This document shows positions 16,881 to 43,806 of a DNA stretch of 64,000 nucleotides, piece after piece. The notes below the pieces were generated by a model that had not been told where the DNA came from, searched no databases, and worked only from the letters and a program-made list of their open reading frames with translations. Position numbers and translations under genes: made by a program. Each line of letters opens with the position of its first letter. Position 1 is the stretch's first letter. The stretch is from the NCBI GenBank assembly GCA_019750255.1, contig JAIEOU010000004.1, positions 63,116 to 127,115 on the forward strand. The letters run 5' to 3'. The DNA comes from Patescibacteria group bacterium (GTDB lineage: Bacteria > Patescibacteriota > Minisyncoccia > Phycocordibacterales > UBA918).

Positions 16881-17411
16881 TTATACAGCACAGTGATCGC
16901 TGAGCAGTTCCTCGAGCTCTTCCTTCGTCGACACGGTGATCACCTCAACCCATTCAGCGTTTTGTCCGCCAATGTGACGAGAAAACCAAACAGTGACGGC
17001 TTCTCTGTCTGTAAGAGAGCCGAAGTGGTACCCGCCGTCGCCTGGCACCTGCAGATATCCGCCCCGGCGAAACGAAAAGCGATACGGGAAGTCACGCTTG
17101 GCCAGCAAACCGTTTATGTGCGACAGAACATTCGCGTGAGCAATTTCTGCAACAGCCTGACGCAGCAACTCCGTCTGTTTGCCGATCAGCGTCAAAGCGA
17201 TAGGGTGACCGGTTTTCTGTAATGCTAGATTCGCAATGGTCACCAGCAGCAGATGAACGTGTGCCTCGGTTTCGGGTTTGATGTACTCGCTCACATCCTC
17301 ACTTACGCGACCGACATTATCAGAGCACATAAACACAGGCACCAGAGCCGCCGAGTCACTCATGACCATTCCTCCTTGGGTGAACGGGATGTCCATTAAA
17401 GATTTTATCAC
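16881..17411 (-). CDS. hypothetical protein
   Basis: 176-aa ORF, no motif recognised. Confidence 0.4.
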   Translation of the reverse strand: MIKSLMDIPFTQGGMVMSDSAALVPVFMCSDNVGRVSEDVSEYIKPETEAHVHLLLVTIANLALQKTGHPIALTLIGKQTELLRQAVAEIAHANVLSHINGLLAKRDFPYRFSFRRGGYLQVPGDGGYHFGSLTDREAVTVWFSRHIGGQNAEWVEVITVSTKEELEELLSDHCAV

Positions 17412-37969: not shown

Positions 37970-38344
37970 CTAGAGAGACTCAATTTTCACTTCTGCGTAG
38001 TGCTGGCGGTGGCCAATGCGTCGGTCACGGTTACTCTTGGCTTTATAGCGCACAATGGTGAGCTTTGGGCCCTTCTTCTCGCCGAGGTAGGTGGCTTTTA
38101 CCTTGGTACCCGTCGTTGGAGAACCGACTTTGGCTACCTTTCCGTCGTCAGTCATAAGCACCTGGTCGAACTCAATTGCGTCACCCTCCTTATGATCACC
38201 AAGAAGTTCAACCTTAAGTACGTCACCAACTGATACCACATACTGCTTACCACCCGTCATAATGACGGCGAAGCTCTCGCTTTTGGCCTTAGCCTTCTTA
38301 ACCACTATCTTAGCTGTTGTTTGAGTTGCCATAATGCGGGCCAT
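37970..38344 (-). CDS. rplU: 50S ribosomal protein L21
   Basis: FAVIMTGGKQYVVSVGD...IEFDQVLM...GHRQHYAEVKI; start uncertain (ORF extends to 38404). Confidence 0.8.
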   Translation of the reverse strand: MARIMATQTTAKIVVKKAKAKSESFAVIMTGGKQYVVSVGDVLKVELLGDHKEGDAIEFDQVLMTDDGKVAKVGSPTTGTKVKATYLGEKKGPKLTIVRYKAKSNRDRRIGHRQHYAEVKIESL

Positions 38345-38679
38345 TGTAACAGAATAAGGAGAAATAACAAGGGGCAAAGCCCCGAGTCTGTTTTGCTTAG
38401 GCAAACACTTCGCTGGATTCGACCCTAAAGGGATAAACAGAAATGATGAGGCTGTAAGCCGACTATATTTTGTTTACTCAAACACTTCACCAGTTACGAC
38501 CTCTGGAGGAGTAACTGGTGGTAGTGTTGTAGAATCCAGCGTTTATGTTTGTAAAAAACCAGTAGTAGCGACTTGCTCTGGCTAAATTGCAAGCATGTAA
38601 GCCGCCATATGTGTGTACACATTACCCTCACTACTTGACACTTCCACTTAAGTATGCTAAACTAAAAAAGTCTGGCGGC

Positions 38680-39130
38680 TTGGGGTACGGCATGCGCCCG
38701 CCCACCGCGTCGGAGCTACGCTCGCAACCGCTTTTTGGAAGCGACCAGCGCCACGCAGAGCCGCCAGACACCCTGTCCTCCCGACGACGAAAAGTTGGAA
38801 GGATTTCACCGCAAAGAGGAGACTGCACGCATGCGTGACTTCACCGAGAAGATCCAGGGCAACACCCCGGGGAATTATGAAACGAGCAACACCAATCTCG
38901 ATCTCGGCGCCGGCGCGGGCGCGATGCTGCTGGGCGCGACGACGGCCACGGCTCGCTGACCTGCACGCGGAGACTGACCTAGCGGAGGTCGTCACCTACA
39001 CCGCTTAGCACCACCGGATGTTCCGCCATCCCGCCGAGGTGTCTCGGTCAACCACAACTACCCGGCGAGATAGGGGGACACCACCCTTCTCGCCACCTCG
39101 TTCTTTCAATAGTTTTCCGAAGTGAGCTGG
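38680..39130. other. anomalous GC-rich intergenic segment with small SD-led ORF (38829-38957, 42 aa)
   Basis: local GC far above flanks; ORF MRDFTEKIQGNTPGNYETSNTNLDLGAGAGAMLLGATTATAR preceded by AAGAGGAG; strongly GC3-rich codons. Confidence 0.3.
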
Positions 39131-39244
39131 GATACCTGGCACATGTCTTTCATTGCCGCACATCCCACCATTACTTCGAAGAGCCGCCATCAGCCGCAAA
39201 ATGAATGTACTTACATTTATTTTGCACCAGCTGGGCGGTTTTTG

Positions 39245-40372
39245 TTATTCATCTTCGCTCTTTACCGGTTTCTCAATTGCTAGCATTTCAATACCCACAG
39301 CCGCTCCGGTAATTTTTGTAACGTCCTTATCAATCTTTCCAAGCTCCTTCTGAGCACTATTGTAGTGGTTAACTGTAGTGGAGAGGCTGTTGCCTACCTT
39401 CTTGAAGTACTCATCGTAGGCCGAGAGGTGGCGCGAGAGCTGCTCAACCTGCTTCCCTATCTGCTTGGCACTCTCTTCAATTTTAAACGCCCGAAATCCA
39501 TACAGCACTGACTGGAGGTACGCAGAAAAAGTAGTTGGAGAAACAATAATCACATTCTTGTCCTTATAGGCGTAATCGATGAGCGATCGAGTATTTACCT
39601 TTACGGAACCCACCTCATTGATGAGCAGGTCGTAGTAAATTGCTTCCGCCGGGATGTACATAAAGGCAAACGGTAACGTGCCGTCGCTTGGACGGATGTA
39701 CTTGGCCGTTTCATCTATGCGCTTTTTTAGGTCATTCTTAAACTCTTTTTCAAGGAATTCCCGCTCATCATCGGTGGTAGCGTCAACCAGGCGACGGTAG
39801 TTGTCAAGCGAAAACTTGGCATCAACCGGAATCATGCCATCCTTGCTCTCAATCACCGCATCCACCGTCTCACCACCTGGAAACTGATACTGCATCTTGT
39901 ACGAACCAGCCGGCAACATATTTTCTAGAGCGAGCTGCAAAGAAGCCTCGCCCAAATTTCCCCGCTGCTTTTGGTGCTTGAGCACCTTCTCAAGATTCTG
40001 CAGCTGCTCGGCCACGGTAAACACCTGCTTACTTGATTCGCTCACCTCACTTACGCCGCGCTGCACATGCAGCAGTTTTTCACCGACACTTTCCTGGATG
40101 TATTTAATCTGTTCGTTTACCTCTTTAGCGATGCCTTGCATCAGCTTCTGACTTTCAGAAAATTGCGAGCGACTGCCCTCCTGCATCGTCCGGTTAGTTT
40201 CCGAAAGACGATTATCCATTGTCCTCGTAAGTTCTTGGAGCTGCTGCTGCATGAGGAGCATGCTTGCGCTAGCACCCTCTGGACTCGTCGACTGCGGCCG
40301 GAGCAAAAAATAGAGCAGAACACCGTTCCCCACTACCAGCGCCGTAAACACAACAATCAGAAGCAATTCCAT
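39245..40372 (-). CDS. rmuC: DNA recombination protein RmuC
   Basis: N-terminal TM, long coiled coil, C-terminal RmuC nuclease-like domain (FAFMYIPAEAIYYDLL). Confidence 0.8.
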   Translation of the reverse strand: MELLLIVVFTALVVGNGVLLYFLLRPQSTSPEGASASMLLMQQQLQELTRTMDNRLSETNRTMQEGSRSQFSESQKLMQGIAKEVNEQIKYIQESVGEKLLHVQRGVSEVSESSKQVFTVAEQLQNLEKVLKHQKQRGNLGEASLQLALENMLPAGSYKMQYQFPGGETVDAVIESKDGMIPVDAKFSLDNYRRLVDATTDDEREFLEKEFKNDLKKRIDETAKYIRPSDGTLPFAFMYIPAEAIYYDLLINEVGSVKVNTRSLIDYAYKDKNVIIVSPTTFSAYLQSVLYGFRAFKIEESAKQIGKQVEQLSRHLSAYDEYFKKVGNSLSTTVNHYNSAQKELGKIDKDVTKITGAAVGIEMLAIEKPVKSEDE

Positions 40373-41063
40373 AATGCCTCCAGAATATCACAGACAGCCG
40401 CCGCTACTTTAGCAAATCATAGAAGGACTTGCGCCCTTATTGATTCTGCTTACACGCTGGTTAGCTTGAATGTAGTGAGGCGCCTGTATCAGAATGATTT
40501 TGGTCTACCATCTTCTCTGGGTAACCCATATCGAAAGAATGCCTCGGTGCGACTTAGAGCTCCATTCTGCCGACCGCTTCAGTGAATGAGTAGTCGACCT
40601 CTGGCCGCACAATATGTTTCTCCCCTCGCGCACTGCATGCGCTTGCACATCATGAGGAGAGGTTTATACTGCCGAAAGGTGCAGTCGTGCACCACTAGAC
40701 AAGGATTCATACGATGCTCAAAGCGTTTGTTCAAGACATGAAAGATCTGCTCCAGATACCACGGGCACTCATCGCTCCTCTCTTCTCCAAAGAGATTCGC
40801 GGCGACTGATTCTGCCCGAACAGCCCCAGGACGACCCAAGTAGGTGCTAGCTTCACCTTCTCGCGTCGTTCTGGGGCTCTCCTTTTTTATACGCGCAATA
40901 CCAAAAACCAAGACTTTATAGTATGTCTACCTATCATTCATGATGGTGACGCTGTAGTTTTTATTGCCCGGCTACCCTGAGCTCTGCACCTTCGGTTACC
41001 AATCCCTCATCACGGCAACCTCCCGATTTTGCCATTCTGCCATTAATGCTAGAATGAACCCAT

Positions 41064-41516
41064 ATGACACTCCACGAAACACTACGCGAGACCTTAAAAG
41101 AGGCCATGAAAGCCAAGGACGAAGTGCGGCTGCGCACCGTTCGCAGCATGCTCACTGCGATGACTAACGAACTAGTCGCCACCGGCAAAAAGCCGCAAGA
41201 CATGATTGAGGATGCTGGTTTTCTCGCCGTTGTTAAGCGCCTCGCCAAGCAGCGGAAGGAATCAATTGTACAGTTTGACGCCGCCGGTCGAGCCGACCTT
41301 TCCGAACCCGAAAAGGCGGAGCTTATGATTCTTGAAGCCTACCTCCCTACCCTCATGACCCAAGAAGCCATCCGCCCAATAGCGGAAGCAAAAAAGGCTG
41401 AGCTCGGGGTGAGCGACAAATCAGGCGTCGGCAAACTCATTGGGGCAGTCAATAGAGAACTCGCTGGCAAAGCCGATGGTGGCGATATAAAGACAGTCGT
41501 GGAGTCACTCTTTTAA
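41064..41516 (+). CDS. GatB/YqeY domain protein
   Basis: MTLHETLRETLKEAMKAKDEVRLRTVRSMLTA typical YqeY N-terminus. Confidence 0.75.
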   Translation: MTLHETLRETLKEAMKAKDEVRLRTVRSMLTAMTNELVATGKKPQDMIEDAGFLAVVKRLAKQRKESIVQFDAAGRADLSEPEKAELMILEAYLPTLMTQEAIRPIAEAKKAELGVSDKSGVGKLIGAVNRELAGKADGGDIKTVVESLF

Positions 41517-41610
41517 GGAAGGGCGGCAGTATCCCCAGAAACTATGTGGCTTATTTGACAGATTGGTATTTTTTGTCATAATTTTGATGTAACCTTTTTG
41601 GGAGGCCACA

Positions 41611-41829
41611 GTGAGGTACGACATCACTTCCCTCGCCACCAAAGCAGCGGGGTTAATAGATTCAGGCCTGAGTGCTCCAGCCGCGGTCGACAGACTCTAC
41701 CAGAGTCTCCGCTGCTTTAACTGGGCTGAGTGGAGAAAATTACGGGCAGATATCCTTTCTGAGCTTGGAAGGCGGGGCGCACGCGCAAGAGACTCGGCCA
41801 AGCGGCAGACTCTGGCACCTCCGCAATGA
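41611..41829 (+). CDS. small hypothetical protein (GTG start)
   Basis: GGGAGG RBS 6 nt upstream of GTG. Confidence 0.35.
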   Translation: MRYDITSLATKAAGLIDSGLSAPAAVDRLYQSLRCFNWAEWRKLRADILSELGRRGARARDSAKRQTLAPPQ

Positions 41830-42018
41830 CAGGCCCAACACACACGAGTCCGCCCGACACCCCGGAATAGACATCCGGGGTGTCCTTATATTCTCTCTAC
41901 AGACCAATTCTCATTGGTATCATTATTTATTGACCACTTCACAATACCAGCGTATAACGTACAGGTCTTTACCCGTGGGGGGTAGGGATAAAAACAAGTG
42001 TCCAAGGGGGACAGAACA

Positions 42019-42462
42019 ATGGGAAAGAAAGTGACCAAGACCAAAGCGAACGCGGAGCCGGCCGCACTCAAGTTTGAAGCGGTGGAGTTCATCGTTGTGT
42101 CGGGCGAGCCGGATTTTCTCGCGGCGCTTAAAAGCGCCCCGTTTATCAAGCAGTTGCTCATCGCGGCCCTCGCACGAGGCAACTGCTCCTGCTCTCCAAC
42201 CCTCGAAACCGGAACCGACAATGGCCAACCGGTCCTCGAGATCTACTGCGACGGCGCAGTTCTGACCGATACAGCTCGGAAAGAGGTGGCTGCCTGGCAC
42301 AAGGCCGCGGTAGCATGGTACGGTGAGAACTTCACCAAAAAGAACATCACCTTCAGCCAGGCGCGAGTCGCGCCTACGGCCAACCAAACCGCTCAGTGGG
42401 CAGTCTGCAAAGCCGAGGTTCTGAGGGAGCAGACCCTGTTCCTCAATCAACGTATGGCCTAG
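42019..42462 (+). CDS. hypothetical protein
   Basis: RBS AAGGGGGA 7 nt upstream of ATG 42019 (MGKKVTKTK). Confidence 0.45.
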   Translation: MGKKVTKTKANAEPAALKFEAVEFIVVSGEPDFLAALKSAPFIKQLLIAALARGNCSCSPTLETGTDNGQPVLEIYCDGAVLTDTARKEVAAWHKAAVAWYGENFTKKNITFSQARVAPTANQTAQWAVCKAEVLREQTLFLNQRMA

Positions 42463-42543
42463 CTGGCCTTAACCGTCATTGCGTATACGCAGCGACACCG
42501 GTTCCGGGATGCGCAAGCAGCCCGGGACTTTTTTATACTCGAC

Positions 42544-43806
42544 TTACCACACAAGCAACTCTGGGTTGAACGCCAAAATACTACCCAGCGCAAGCATCAG
42601 TAACCCACCAATCAGCAGTGACAGGTTGGCGTACTTTCCACCCAGCGCCTGCAGCTTTCCATAACCCCAAATCGCGAGACCAAACACAATAACATCGTCT
42701 ACCATGTACCCAGCGGTATACACGAGCAGGTACCACTGCCGCTCCATAAACGTAAGCATGTTCATTTCCAGAATCTTGGTATACGCCTGCGGAATACCAA
42801 TTGAGCAGGCGAACTCAATTACATTGACCGAGAAGGCAATACCGATAATTGAAATGATCGACAACGCGGTAATTGGTTGGTTGGCAATTGCCTTGAACCG
42901 GGCAATCACTTTCCCCTGCGTTTCAAGGTCTGTCACATCGCACACGAGCGCCGCCTCCCGGTTTTTGTACCACCGCCACAAAAAGTAGGCACCGCCACCC
43001 AGAGCGAGAAAGCCGACGAGGGGGGTCACAATTTGATCAAGCGCAACAAAGTCCCAGGTTTTGTACCACACATTAAGAATAAGGTTGTACATGATGCCCT
43101 CGGCCAACATAAAGAGCCCTGCCAGGAACACCATTTTGCGGCGACTACCGGCCTGTGACAGAAGCACACAGAATGTCACAAGCACCCACATCGCACACGG
43201 GTTGAAACCATCGATTGTGCCTAAGACTAAAGAGAGGGTGAAGAGCGAAAACGACTGGAGATCTACAATTCCAAGAAGGGGTAAATCGAAAACAAACGAA
43301 GAATTTGAACCTTGATCACACGAGATATCAGAACACCCACCACCTCCTGAAGTTACGCTTTGCTTGGGAGCTTCGGAAAGATGTTCTTCAATTGTACGGA
43401 TAGTGCCCGTAAGAGCGACGCTGTATGCTTCTTTTATGGCCAGACCGGTCGTTTCGGGAGCATTAAAGCCAACAATCACTCTTTCCCCCACCACTGTGAT
43501 GGGAGTCACTTGAGAGATTTCATGCTTGGCAGTCAGCTGATCAAAAAGTGCCTTTGCCTCTGGATCTGTCTTTATATTTAAGTATTCATACGGCAGGTCG
43601 GTGGTTTCCAGCCACGCAAACTGCTTTTTACAAAAGCCACAATCATCGCGTCCAAAAATGAGCAGCTTCACTTCCCCATCACTACTCGCTGTAGCAGCGA
43701 CTACTGGCGCTGGTGCCGGCTGTACACCAACCATAGCTGGTCCATACCACCAGGCGAACAATGCAACCCCCAGCACCACCCAGCTACCCCACAAAAATTT
43801 CTTCAT
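42544..43806 (-). CDS. glutaredoxin/thioredoxin-like domain fused to CcdA/DsbD-like thiol:disulfide transporter membrane domain
   Basis: N-terminal TM + CGFC redox motif (LLIFGRDDCGFCKKQ); C-terminal polytopic domain with conserved TM cysteines (FNPCAMW, EFACSIG). Confidence 0.6.
   Translation of the reverse strand: MKKFLWGSWVVLGVALFAWWYGPAMVGVQPAPAPVVAATASSDGEVKLLIFGRDDCGFCKKQFAWLETTDLPYEYLNIKTDPEAKALFDQLTAKHEISQVTPITVVGERVIVGFNAPETTGLAIKEAYSVALTGTIRTIEEHLSEAPKQSVTSGGGGCSDISCDQGSNSSFVFDLPLLGIVDLQSFSLFTLSLVLGTIDGFNPCAMWVLVTFCVLLSQAGSRRKMVFLAGLFMLAEGIMYNLILNVWYKTWDFVALDQIVTPLVGFLALGGGAYFLWRWYKNREAALVCDVTDLETQGKVIARFKAIANQPITALSIISIIGIAFSVNVIEFACSIGIPQAYTKILEMNMLTFMERQWYLLVYTAGYMVDDVIVFGLAIWGYGKLQALGGKYANLSLLIGGLLMLALGSILAFNPELLVW

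What the first reader, a model, noticed from the sequence alone, without database searches (positions are those of the whole stretch)
38680..39130. 450-bp GC-rich island between rplU and rmuC with an SD-led 42-codon GC3-rich ORF
An ~830-bp gap lacks any convincing protein gene. Its central ~450 bp are far more GC-rich than anything else in the window. It contains an ORF (38829-38957) MRDFTEKIQGNTPGNYETSNTNLDLGAGAGAMLLGATTATAR with a strong AAGAGGAG Shine-Dalgarno and almost exclusively G/C third positions, unlike host genes. The peptide has a polar leader-like N-half and a Gly/Ala/Thr-rich C-half reminiscent of RiPP precursors or secreted small peptides. Alternatively the segment may be a structured RNA or a fragment captured from a high-GC donor.
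Basis: seen in the sequence. Interest (0 to 1): 0.5.

Follow-up and report, generated by a model that had tools for sequence, protein, structure and literature searches.

The report
Orphan small gene in variable slot
The GC-rich patch between rmuC and rplU is not a known RNA or a RiPP locus; it is most likely a lineage-specific 42-codon mini-gene with its own promoter and terminator, at a genomic position where related Patescibacteria carry many different small genes.

Summary
The gap is 912 nt (38333-39244). The ORF is 38831-38959. The island has the highest GC in the window (0.63 against a mean of 0.49) but lies only about 2.6 SD out. No Rfam family, tRNA or tmRNA matches. None of the three open frames has a homologue in protein, phage, plasmid, viral or metagenome searches.

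The two nearest relatives (RmuC 86-87% identical) have only about 45 nt between rmuC and rplU, so about 870 nt is a lineage-specific insert. Independent assemblies overlap it with identical sequence.

The + strand carries a full expression unit: promoter, 100-nt 5' stem-loop, AAGAGGAG, an unstructured ORF rich in G/C at third codon positions (GC3), a structured 3' region and an intrinsic terminator.

Of 160 related loci, 128 keep rmuC-rplU. In 52 of 68 distinct gaps of 150 nt or more there is a Shine-Dalgarno (SD)-led small ORF in the same antisense orientation (shuffles 12.8). These fall into about 64 unrelated families.

Best reading: a real orphan small-protein gene in a hypervariable slot (confidence about 0.5). 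RiPP is not supported. A high-GC donor is possible but none was found.

The parts
38333..39244 (.). Whole rmuC-rplU intergenic gap (912 nt). About 870 nt of it is absent from the nearest relatives.
   Evidence: L001 has 45 nt between the rmuC stop and the rplU ATG. L088 has about 50 nt or less.
38343..38370 (-). Native rplU promoter (TTGTTA-16-TACAAT). A 10-nt leader without SD follows before the ATG at 38332. This marks the left edge of the insert.
   Evidence: Promoter scan. The same architecture, TTGCAt-N17-tcTTGTAcaAT-N9/10-ATG, is conserved in about 50 related loci.
38371..38634 (.). AT-richer (GC 0.43) structured part of the insert. It holds a GGGGCAAAGCCCC hairpin, a 43-nt direct repeat (38382 and 38459) and a branched hairpin closed by 38411-38423 / 38529-38541. 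Function unknown.
   Evidence: z = -4.2 on both strands. No Rfam match. No similarity in 160 related loci apart from one 30-nt match to L042.
38609..38622 (.). Palindrome ATGTGTGTACACAT, 12 nt upstream of the -35 box of the + strand promoter. Candidate operator (inference).
   Evidence: 38609-38638 matches L042 at 26 of 30 positions, where the palindrome sits just upstream of the rplU -35 box.
38635..38663 (+). Sigma-70-like promoter TTGACA-17-(TG)n-TAAACT. The predicted start of transcription is near 38670.
   Evidence: 10 of 12 matches plus an extended -10. Predicted only.
38670..38769 (+). 100-nt stem-loop at the predicted 5' end, closed by a 12-bp stem (38670-38681 / 38758-38769). On the minus strand it is followed by T6 (38669-38664), so it could also terminate read-through from rmuC.
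   Evidence: I4; z = -3.4 on +, -2.6 on -. The sequence shows the A6/T6 run.
38814..38821 (+). Shine-Dalgarno-like AAGAGGAG, 9 nt before the ATG. Mean probability of being unpaired is 0.53.
38831..38959 (+). 42-codon ORF: MRDFTEKIQGNTPGNYETSNTNLDLGAGAGAMLLGATTATAR plus TGA.
   Evidence: called as a gene in a Logan assembly; GC3 0.83, Fisher p 0.003; no excess structure, z = +1.0.
38960..39178 (+). Structured, GC-rich 3' region, with hairpins at 39064-39094 and 39119-39177. It shows coding-like 3-base periodicity in other frames, so it may be a relic of a longer or older coding sequence.
   Evidence: 38770-39178: z = -3.2 on +, -0.6 on -.
39179..39246 (+). Intrinsic terminator for the + strand unit: a long hairpin followed by TTTTTGTT. 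It abuts and overlaps the rmuC stop codon, so the two genes converge tail to tail.
   Evidence: I1; z = -6.4 on +. The T-run follows the hairpin only on the + strand.
38600..39189 (.). Four copies of the 8-mer AGCCGCCA or its complement, at 38600 (+), 38673 (-), 38759 (+) and 39182 (+). There is one more in the other 63 kb. The copies at 38600 and 39182 extend to AGCCGCCAT.
   Evidence: Repeats D3, I4 and I8. Meaning unknown.

Best explanation
The island is the core of an insert of about 870 nt that only this Patescibacteria lineage carries, between the convergent rmuC and the divergent rplU.

Proposed expression unit on the + strand:
- Transcription starts from TTGACA-17-TGnTAAACT at about 38670.
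- The first 100 nt fold into a stem-loop. I infer that it stabilises the 5' end.
- AAGAGGAG and the ATG lie in a less structured stretch, and a 42-residue peptide is translated.
- A structured 3' region ends in an intrinsic terminator that abuts the rmuC stop codon.

The peptide has a polar N-terminal half that is slightly acidic. Its C-terminal half is Gly/Ala/Thr-rich and only weakly hydrophobic. I infer a small accessory protein, possibly membrane-peripheral or self-associating. It is not a precursor for enzymatic modification.

The gene occupies a position that works as a hypervariable small-gene slot across the clade. Most relatives with a gap there carry an unrelated SD-led small ORF in the same antisense orientation.

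What is shown and what is inferred:
- Shown: the sequence signals, the composition, the absence from relatives and the slot pattern.
- Inferred: transcription, translation, the peptide's role and a foreign high-GC origin.
For: Lineage-specific and real:
- The nearest relatives, L001 and L088, have only about 45 nt at this junction.
- A contig from an independent run reproduces 38472-43053 with no mismatch in the gap, and a second reaches about 40 nt into the island.

Same-strand expression signals:
- The promoter matches 10 of 12 positions and has an extended -10.
- The terminator folds with z = -6.4 and has a U-tract only on the + strand.
- SD and ATG are 9 nt apart.

Coding signature:
- GC by codon position is 24, 23 and 35 of 42 (Fisher p = 0.003).
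- The third-position excess spans the ORF and falls away after the stop.
- 3-base periodicity reaches z = 3.4 at 38790-38939, within the range of rmuC and dnaB windows.
- The ORF segment has no excess structure (z = +1.0). The flanks do.
- An SD-led ORF of this size arises in only 3% of shuffles.

Strand: the fold z-score is -5.8 on +, against -2.5 on -.

Slot context:
- 128 of 160 loci keep rmuC followed by rplU. Gaps range from 0 to 3094 nt.
- 52 of 68 distinct gaps of 150 nt or more hold an SD-led ORF of 30 aa or more on the antisense strand. The sense strand has 24, and shuffles give 12.8 +/- 2.9.
- The 81 antisense ORFs fall into 64 families.
- Several are GC3-rich against genomes of 0.46-0.50 GC: L107 0.76, L109 0.81, L110 0.86, L048 0.69.
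- The L107/L109/L110 family keeps a conserved C-terminal half with two Cys, so ORFs in this slot can encode real proteins.
Against: - No homologue exists, so neither purifying selection nor covariation can be tested.
- The AlphaFold2 single-sequence model is unfolded, with pLDDT 60.
- No transmembrane segment or signal peptide is predicted. The maximum Kyte-Doolittle mean is 1.2-1.3.
- The unit is oddly large for 42 codons. The 5' leader is about 160 nt and the 3' region about 280 nt, whereas slot genes in relatives are compact.
- The 3' region shows coding-like periodicity in other frames. The ORF may therefore be the truncated stump of a decayed longer gene.
- Most long host genes here lack an SD: 4 of 40, which is background level. 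Some small host genes do have one.
- There are no expression data.
Confidence: 0.5

Rival explanations
1. A non-coding structured RNA of about 570 nt on the + strand (38670-39240), with the ORF incidental. A variant of this reading is a cis-antisense RNA that overlaps read-through transcripts from rmuC and modulates the rmuC 3' end or rplU expression.
For: - The whole unit folds with z = -5.8 and the central 409 nt with z = -3.2, on the + strand only.
- A promoter and a terminator bracket it.
- rmuC has no good terminator of its own. The 38670-38769 hairpin is followed by T6 on the minus strand, so the two transcripts could overlap by about 570 nt.
- The 8-mer AGCCGCCA or its complement occurs four times and allows alternative pairings.
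Against: - No Rfam family matches, even at E<=10.
- No related sequence exists in 160 syntenic loci or in the viral, plasmid and phage collections, so there is no covariation support.
- The ORF segment is less structured than its shuffles and has a codon-position bias that an RNA gene would not need.
- Relatives carry protein-coding small ORFs at this position.
Confidence: 0.2
2. Non-functional relic: decaying foreign or former slot DNA. The 42-codon ORF would be the leftover 5' part of a longer gene broken by frameshifts and stops, and the promoter and terminator matches would be fortuitous or residual.
For: - Coding-like GC periodicity changes phase along the island: phase 2 at 38810-38959, phase 0 at 38960-39049, and phase 2 again at 39020-39139.
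- Periodicity reaches z = 2.7 at 39030-39179 and z = 4.4 at 38430-38579.
- Three frames stay open for more than 110 codons with single stops.
- The insert is much larger than the ORF needs.
- The slot turns over quickly in relatives.
Against: - No frame has any homologue. This covers the word-indexed search of 5.8 billion clusters, HMMER against 1.84 billion representatives, Pfam, NCBIfam, PHROGs, PADLOC, and tblastn against plasmids and phages.
- Promoter, SD, start, stop and terminator are all intact and correctly ordered on one strand.
- The gap portion covered by the independent DRR851323 contig (38472-39244) shows no mismatch.
Confidence: 0.2
3. Type I toxin-antitoxin-like module: a small toxic peptide translated from a heavily structured mRNA and repressed by an antisense RNA.
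For: - A small ORF with long structured untranslated regions.
- A possible 5'-3' pairing through TGGCGGCT (38673) and AGCCGCCA (39182).
- A weak antisense promoter match at 38901..38874, 9 of 12 positions.
- A position in variable DNA.
Against: - The peptide is not hydrophobic enough for a membrane helix. The Kyte-Doolittle maximum is 1.2-1.3.
- It has a polar N-terminus and no charged tail.
- PADLOC, Pfam and NCBIfam give no match.
- The antisense promoter match is at chance level, and no antisense terminator lies nearby.
Confidence: 0.05
4. RiPP precursor or secreted bacteriocin-like peptide.
For: The size fits, as does a polar N-terminal half followed by a Gly/Ala/Thr-rich C-terminal half.
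Against: - No modification enzyme, protease or transporter family matches a gene within about 5 kb.
- There is no Cys, no double-glycine or other known leader motif, and no precursor family hit.
- No other genome carries the peptide.
Confidence: 0.02

Closest known systems
Orphan small ORF-encoded proteins in strain-variable intergenic islets of bacterial genomes
   Same: - Fewer than 50 codons and no homologues.
- Its own promoter, SD and terminator.
- Atypical composition.
- Absent from close relatives.
- Sits at a junction whose content differs between lineages.
   Different: - Here the slot is positionally conserved across a whole clade: rmuC-rplU in 128 of 160 loci.
- There is a strong orientation bias for the small ORFs.
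- Untranslated regions are unusually long for this one.
Dual-function or structured small-ORF transcripts (for example RNAIII/hld, SgrS/SgrT, SR1/SR1P); named from general knowledge, not tested here
   Same: A predicted transcript of several hundred nucleotides that is significantly structured and contains a short SD-led ORF.
   Different: There is no evidence for a base-pairing target, no conservation and no Rfam family. The structure lies outside the ORF, and any regulatory role is pure inference.
Type I toxin-antitoxin loci (hok/sok-like)
   Same: A small ORF, a long folded mRNA, possible pairing between the 5' and 3' ends, and a location in variable DNA.
   Different: The peptide lacks a clear transmembrane helix. 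No credible antisense RNA gene is present, and no family matches.
RiPP precursor peptides
   Same: The length, and a polar N-terminal half followed by a small-residue-rich C-terminal half.
   Different: No biosynthetic neighbours, no Cys, no leader motif and no homologues.
Horizontally acquired GC-atypical DNA (genomic islets)
   Same: - GC 0.63 against 0.49 for the window.
- GC3 0.83 against 0.49-0.58 in host genes.
- A strong SD in a genome where most long genes have none.
- Missing from the nearest relatives.
   Different: - No donor was found.
- No integrase, tRNA, inverted terminal repeats or attC sites.
- GC3-rich small ORFs at this slot are also seen in a family shared by three lineages (L107, L109, L110). 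High GC3 alone therefore does not prove recent import.

Membership tests
Known structured RNA families (Rfam 15: RNase P, SRP, 6S, tmRNA, riboswitches, large ncRNAs such as OLE, GOLLD, ROOL, HEARO) | A covariance-model match at or near the family's gathering score | tested here: not met
   No match in the window at gathering score. None at E<=10 on 38250-39350, both strands. ARAGORN found no tRNA or tmRNA.
RiPP precursor | Modification enzyme, protease or transporter genes located next to it | tested here: not met
   The genes within about 5 kb are dnaB, a receiver-domain protein, recR, rplU, rmuC, a YqeY-domain gene, a glutaredoxin-domain protein, msrB (SelR), an HhH-GPD glycosylase and a few orphans. 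None matches a modification-enzyme, protease or transporter family.
RiPP precursor | A recognisable leader or core family, or homologous precursors in other genomes | tested here: not met
   Pfam and NCBIfam give nothing significant. No homologue was found. The two HMMER hits are short motifs inflated by repeats.
RiPP precursor | A core rich in modifiable residues (Cys, Ser, Thr) | tested here: inconclusive
   Eight Thr in the whole peptide (four in the C-terminal half), one Ser and no Cys (sequence).
Type I toxin | A peptide of 60 aa or fewer with a predicted transmembrane helix | tested here: not met
   The maximum Kyte-Doolittle mean is 1.29 (15 aa), 1.20 (17 aa) and 1.09 (19 aa), below the conventional 1.6. 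The AlphaFold2 model shows no helix in the C-terminal half.
Type I toxin | A cognate antisense RNA gene | tested here: inconclusive
   Only a 9-of-12 promoter match on the minus strand at 38901..38874. The scan finds 4 sites against 1.2 expected. No transcript data are available.
Pseudogene of a known protein family | Significant similarity of some reading frame to a known protein or family | tested here: not met
   The three open frames were searched. So were HMMER against 1.84 billion representatives, Pfam, NCBIfam, PHROGs and PADLOC, tblastn against plasmids and phages, and tblastx against 160 loci. All were negative or at chance level.
Integron gene cassette | An attC site with R'' (RYYYAAC) and R' (GTTRRRY) boxes | tested here: not met
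   No such pair lies 40-130 nt apart on either strand of the gap. Presence of an integron integrase in the window was not tested.
Insertion sequence or MITE | Terminal inverted repeats, a target-site duplication, and further copies in the genome | tested here: not met
   There are no terminal inverted repeats and no second copy in the 64 kb, where matches are at most 14 nt. A 9-nt direct repeat AGCCGCCAT at 38600 and 39182 is the only hint.
Diversity-generating retroelement target | A template repeat, a reverse transcriptase and adenine-specific variation | tested here: not met
   The window has no repeat of the island. In the L109/L110 pair the substitutions are not A-biased, and there is no template copy in the locus.
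rmuC-rplU small-gene slot (a positional class defined here) | An SD-led ORF of 30 aa or more, antisense to rmuC and rplU, with its own promoter and a terminator next to the rmuC stop | tested here: met
   For the window. For relatives: 52 of 68 distinct gaps, against 12.8 +/- 2.9 in shuffles. Examples are L048 and L107-L110.

The most novel reading that the evidence does not exclude
The island is one allele of a clade-wide hypervariable cassette slot between rmuC and rplU in Paceibacteria-like Patescibacteria. Small SD-led genes are swapped or diversified there very fast. In L109 and L110, for example, rmuC is 99.7% identical but the slot ORF only 75%. Their products are small membrane, secreted or basic peptides that would mediate strain-specific interactions such as host attachment, immunity or phage exclusion. 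GC-rich alleles such as this one would be imported from high-GC partners of these episymbionts.
Probability: 0.15. Interest if true: 0.55.

Novelty: new member of a known kind. Interest (0 to 1): 0.3.

Why it matters
On its own this is one more orphan mini-gene in an uncultured bacterium. It has no known family and no testable function, so its value is modest.

The context is more useful. The same junction is a positionally conserved and strongly oriented hotspot of unrelated small genes, and it diverges sharply even between nearly identical strains. If that holds, it is a convenient marker locus for strain-level diversification and gene flow in Patescibacteria. It is also a source of candidate small proteins involved in their episymbiotic lifestyle.

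The work also shows that most long genes in this genome have very short leaders without an SD, while some small genes in the window, and the ORFs found at this slot in relatives, use a strong SD. This matters for gene calling in such genomes.

Tried and rejected
**Known RNA.** Rfam at gathering score and at E<=10, and ARAGORN, found nothing. Sixteen related loci also had no Rfam hit.

**Mobile DNA.**
- blastn of the gap against phages and plasmids found nothing.
- blastn and nhmmer against 160 syntenic loci found nothing, apart from a 30-nt match to L042 and a 31-nt chance match to L121.
- A viral scan for the 5' hairpin arms gave 5 hits in GC-rich phage coding DNA with unrelated interiors, which is about chance level.
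- A second viral scan found none.

**Pseudogene.**
- All open frames were negative.
- The ACP_syn_III hit (E = 0.07, on the GAGAGA stretch) is at chance level for nine queries.
- P0002 and P0003 are repeat proteins that match 10-residue motifs.
- A conceptual frameshift-repaired 60-mer found nothing in plasmids or phages.

**Structure prediction.** The AlphaFold2 model of the peptide was uninformative.

**tmRNA.** A resemblance of CTGGATTCGAC (38413-38423) to the 5' part of tmRNA was recalled from memory. It was rejected because ARAGORN and Rfam are negative and no acceptor or T-arm is present.

**Other element classes.** attC, MITE and DGR readings were rejected.

**Look-ups that failed.** Looking up rplU by exact protein, to find alternative junctions, failed for three start choices.

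**Literature.** Searches for this junction or for SD usage in Patescibacteria gave nothing useful.

Full report
**Organism and setting.** The window has 49% GC. Its RmuC is identical to NCBI MBY0309905.1, from a 'Patescibacteria group bacterium'. The best relatives are assemblies labelled Paceibacteria, Kaiserbacteria or Nomurabacteria. rmuC (39245-40372) and rplU (37970-38332) both lie on the minus strand. Comparison with about 50 relatives fixes the rplU start at the ATG at 38332. That start is preceded by a conserved promoter (TTGCAt-N17-tcTTGTAcaAT) and a 9-10 nt leader without a Shine-Dalgarno (SD) sequence. In the window the promoter is TTGTTA-16-TACAAT at 38370-38343. The intergenic gap is therefore 38333-39244, which is 912 nt.

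**Checking the observation.**
- The GC island is real. GC is 0.625 for 38680-39130, against 0.43 for 38335-38670 and 0.47 for 39131-39244.
- It holds the highest 300-nt and 450-nt windows of the 64 kb (0.637 and 0.627). That is only about 2.6 SD above the mean. Other places reach 0.60-0.62, so 'far more GC-rich than anything else' is too strong.
- The ORF is at 38831-38959. AAGAGGAG lies at 38814-38821, 9 nt upstream of the ATG.
- GC3 is 35 of 42, against 24 and 23 of 42 at positions 1 and 2 (Fisher p = 0.003). Host genes have GC3 of 0.49-0.58.
- In 60-nt windows the third-position excess spans the ORF and falls away after the stop.
- Two independent sequencing runs overlap the region with matching sequence. 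The DRR851323 contig covers the whole island with no mismatch in the gap, and the SRR15085122 contig reaches about 40 nt into it. A one-off chimeric assembly is therefore unlikely.

**What it is not.**
- Rfam 15 finds nothing in the window at gathering score. It also finds nothing at E<=10 in 38250-39350 on either strand. ARAGORN finds no tRNA or tmRNA.
- No pseudogene of a known family was detected. The three frames that stay open across the island were searched against the 5.8-billion-cluster protein collection without a hit.
- HMMER against 1.84 billion representatives returned only two repeat proteins that match 10-residue motifs.
- Pfam, NCBIfam, PHROGs and PADLOC gave nothing above chance.
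- Phage and plasmid collections were negative at both DNA and protein level.
- Viral and JGI metagenome scans with the peptide were negative.
- The RiPP idea fails on context. Within about 5 kb there are only housekeeping genes and a few orphans.

**Comparative anatomy.**
- With RmuC as the anchor I fetched 80 genome loci and 80 metagenome loci. In 128 of them rplU follows rmuC on the same strand. The gap ranges from 0 to 3094 nt, with a median of 296.
- The two closest relatives (RmuC 86-87% identical) have about 45 nt between the rmuC stop and the rplU ATG, which is just the rplU promoter. About 870 nt (38371-39244) is therefore specific to this lineage.
- None of the 160 loci contains DNA or peptide similar to the island.

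**Anatomy of the insert.**
- *Left part (38371-38634).* This part is AT-richer and significantly structured on both strands (z = -4.2). It holds a 43-nt direct repeat and a branched hairpin. I could not assign it a function.
- *Promoter.* A palindrome, ATGTGTGTACACAT, sits at 38609-38622. A good + strand promoter follows at 38635-38663 (TTGACA, 17 nt, TG-extended TAAACT).
- *5' stem-loop.* The predicted transcript would begin at about 38670 with a 100-nt stem-loop closed by 12 bp (z = -3.4).
- *Initiation region.* SD and ATG are partly unpaired (mean unpaired probability 0.53 and 0.70).
- *ORF.* The ORF segment has no excess structure (z = +1.0).
- *3' region.* It contains hairpins at 39064-39094 and 39119-39177.
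- *Terminator.* A long hairpin is followed by TTTTTGTT (z = -6.4). The U-tract exists only on the + strand and overlaps the rmuC stop.
- *Strand.* The whole unit folds with z = -5.8 on + against -2.5 on -. The central 409 nt fold with z = -3.2 against -0.6.

These are the signals expected of a self-contained + strand gene that converges on rmuC. One caveat applies. The 5' stem-loop is followed by T6 on the minus strand, and rmuC lacks a good terminator of its own. Read-through from rmuC could therefore cross the island in antisense and stop there.

**The slot.** This result changed my prior most.
- Among 68 distinct gaps of 150 nt or more in relatives, 52 carry an SD-led ORF of 30 aa or more on the strand antisense to rmuC and rplU. 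The sense strand has 24, and shuffled gaps give 12.8 +/- 2.9.
- The 81 antisense ORFs fall into 64 similarity groups.
- Many are plainly small membrane or secreted proteins: L032 (41 aa), L103 (47 aa), L107/L109/L110 (68-69 aa, with a conserved C-terminal half and two Cys) and L070 (108 aa).
- Others are small and very basic, such as L048 and L100, which share MAK[TS]N[AS]RK[AI]RDK.
- Several are GC3-rich in genomes of 46-50% GC: 0.69-0.86.
- The window's ORF is unrelated to all of them. It has the same position, orientation, SD use and convergent tail-to-tail arrangement with rmuC.
- The slot is also hypervariable at short range. L109 and L110 share 99.7% identical rmuC DNA, yet their slot ORFs are only 75% identical. 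About 70 of the 105 mismatches in 4 kb lie in the cassette of about 230 nt. The substitutions show no adenine bias and no template repeat is present, so this is not a DGR.

**Translation signals in the host.**
- Only 4 of 40 long ORFs have even a 4-mer SD core upstream, which is the background rate. Many have a -10-like box 8-12 nt before the ATG.
- A minority of mostly small genes do have AAGGAG-type sites.
- In the SD-filtered scan of relatives' gaps, SD-led ORFs are far commoner on the antisense strand than shuffles predict.
- The strong SD here therefore sets the ORF apart from the long genes of this genome and matches those slot ORFs. It is not proof of foreign origin.

**Interpretation.**
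- I rate a genuine, lineage-specific small-protein gene as most likely (about 0.5).
- The peptide (net charge -1) has no signal peptide or clear membrane helix. Its Kyte-Doolittle maximum is 1.2-1.3, and its AlphaFold2 pLDDT is 60. Its biochemical role is inferred only by analogy with the other small accessory proteins in the slot.
- A non-coding or antisense RNA (about 0.2) is kept alive by the strand-specific structure and the convergent layout.
- A decaying relic (about 0.2) is kept alive by the oversized untranslated regions. It is also supported by coding-like periodicity in shifted frames at 38960-39180 and in the AT-rich part.
- Type I toxin and RiPP readings are weak.
- A high-GC donor is plausible from the composition, but no donor was found. 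The L107/L109/L110 family shows that GC3-rich slot genes can persist across lineages.

**Verdict.** Its nature is ordinary: an orphan accessory mini-gene, not a known RNA and not a RiPP. The more interesting by-product is the conserved, oriented, fast-turning small-gene slot between rmuC and rplU.

Noticed in passing
L001-L167 (rmuC-rplU junction); window 38333-39244: The rmuC-rplU junction is a clade-wide hotspot. Gaps range from 0 to 3094 nt. In 52 of 68 distinct gaps of 150 nt or more there is an SD-led small ORF antisense to both genes, and these fall into about 64 unrelated families (small membrane, secreted or basic proteins). Other cargo includes an IS200-like TnpA plus RadC (L051) and three pilin-like genes (L030).
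   Followed up: partly
L109 1590-1937 vs L110 3593-3942: Two contigs have 99.7% identical rmuC DNA, but their 68/69-aa slot ORF is only 75% identical. Divergence starts and stops sharply at the cassette borders. Substitutions are not adenine-biased and no template repeat is present. This looks like allele replacement or strong diversifying selection.
   Followed up: partly
window-wide; for example upstream of 6790, 35240, 42544-43806(-), 58663: Most long genes lack an SD (4 of 40, which is background). They have a -10-like box (TATACT or TACAAT) only 8-12 nt before the ATG, which suggests very short-leader or leaderless mRNAs. A minority of small genes (for example 33287, 33852, 28545, 16881-17363) have AAGGAG-type SDs.
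   Followed up: partly
window 38472-38486 and 39094: Logan contigs from two samples (DRR851323, DRR851307) both end exactly at 38486. The next DRR851323 contig starts at 38472, a 15-nt overlap. An SRR15085122 contig ends at 39094, at the 3' edge of a GC hairpin. The cause could be a coverage dropout or a structural polymorphism inside the insert.
   Followed up: no
window 38371-38634: The AT-rich half of the insert is strongly structured (z = -4.2 on both strands). It has a 43-nt direct repeat (38382 and 38459, 74% identical) and a multi-branched hairpin closed by CGCTGGATTCGAC / GTAGAATCCAGCG. It also shows coding-like 3-base periodicity at 38430-38580 (z = 4.4). No Rfam match and no homologue.
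   Followed up: partly
window 38609-38638; L042 5853-5882: The palindrome ATGTGTGTACACAT and the adjacent TTGA of a -35 box match L042 at 26 of 30 positions. In L042 the same palindrome sits just upstream of the rplU promoter, in the opposite orientation relative to synteny. It may be a shared operator or a chance match (E = 0.001 in a small database).
   Followed up: partly
window 38600, 38673, 38759, 39182: The 8-mer AGCCGCCA or its complement occurs four times within 600 nt of the insert and once in the remaining 63 kb. The copies at 38600 and 39182 extend to AGCCGCCAT and bracket the promoter, ORF and 3' region like a 9-nt direct repeat.
   Followed up: no
L048 5221-5400 (minus strand); L100: A small, very basic, GC3-rich protein family (MAKTNARKARDKQARAGNGKG... 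55 aa, and MAKSNSRKIRDKRARAG... 54 aa). In L048 it has a GGAGGA SD, a TTGACA promoter back to back with the rplU promoter, and a clean terminator. The L048 member has no Pfam match; L100 was not scanned.
   Followed up: partly
window 40373-41063 and 41950-42462: A second oversized gap lies between rmuC and the YqeY-domain gene. It is 690 nt, against about 200 nt in L001, and holds no convincing gene. Nearby is the second most GC-rich patch of the window (0.60). It holds an orphan 147-aa ORF (42019-42462, GC3 0.72, no Pfam hit) in a region that also differs from L001.
   Followed up: no
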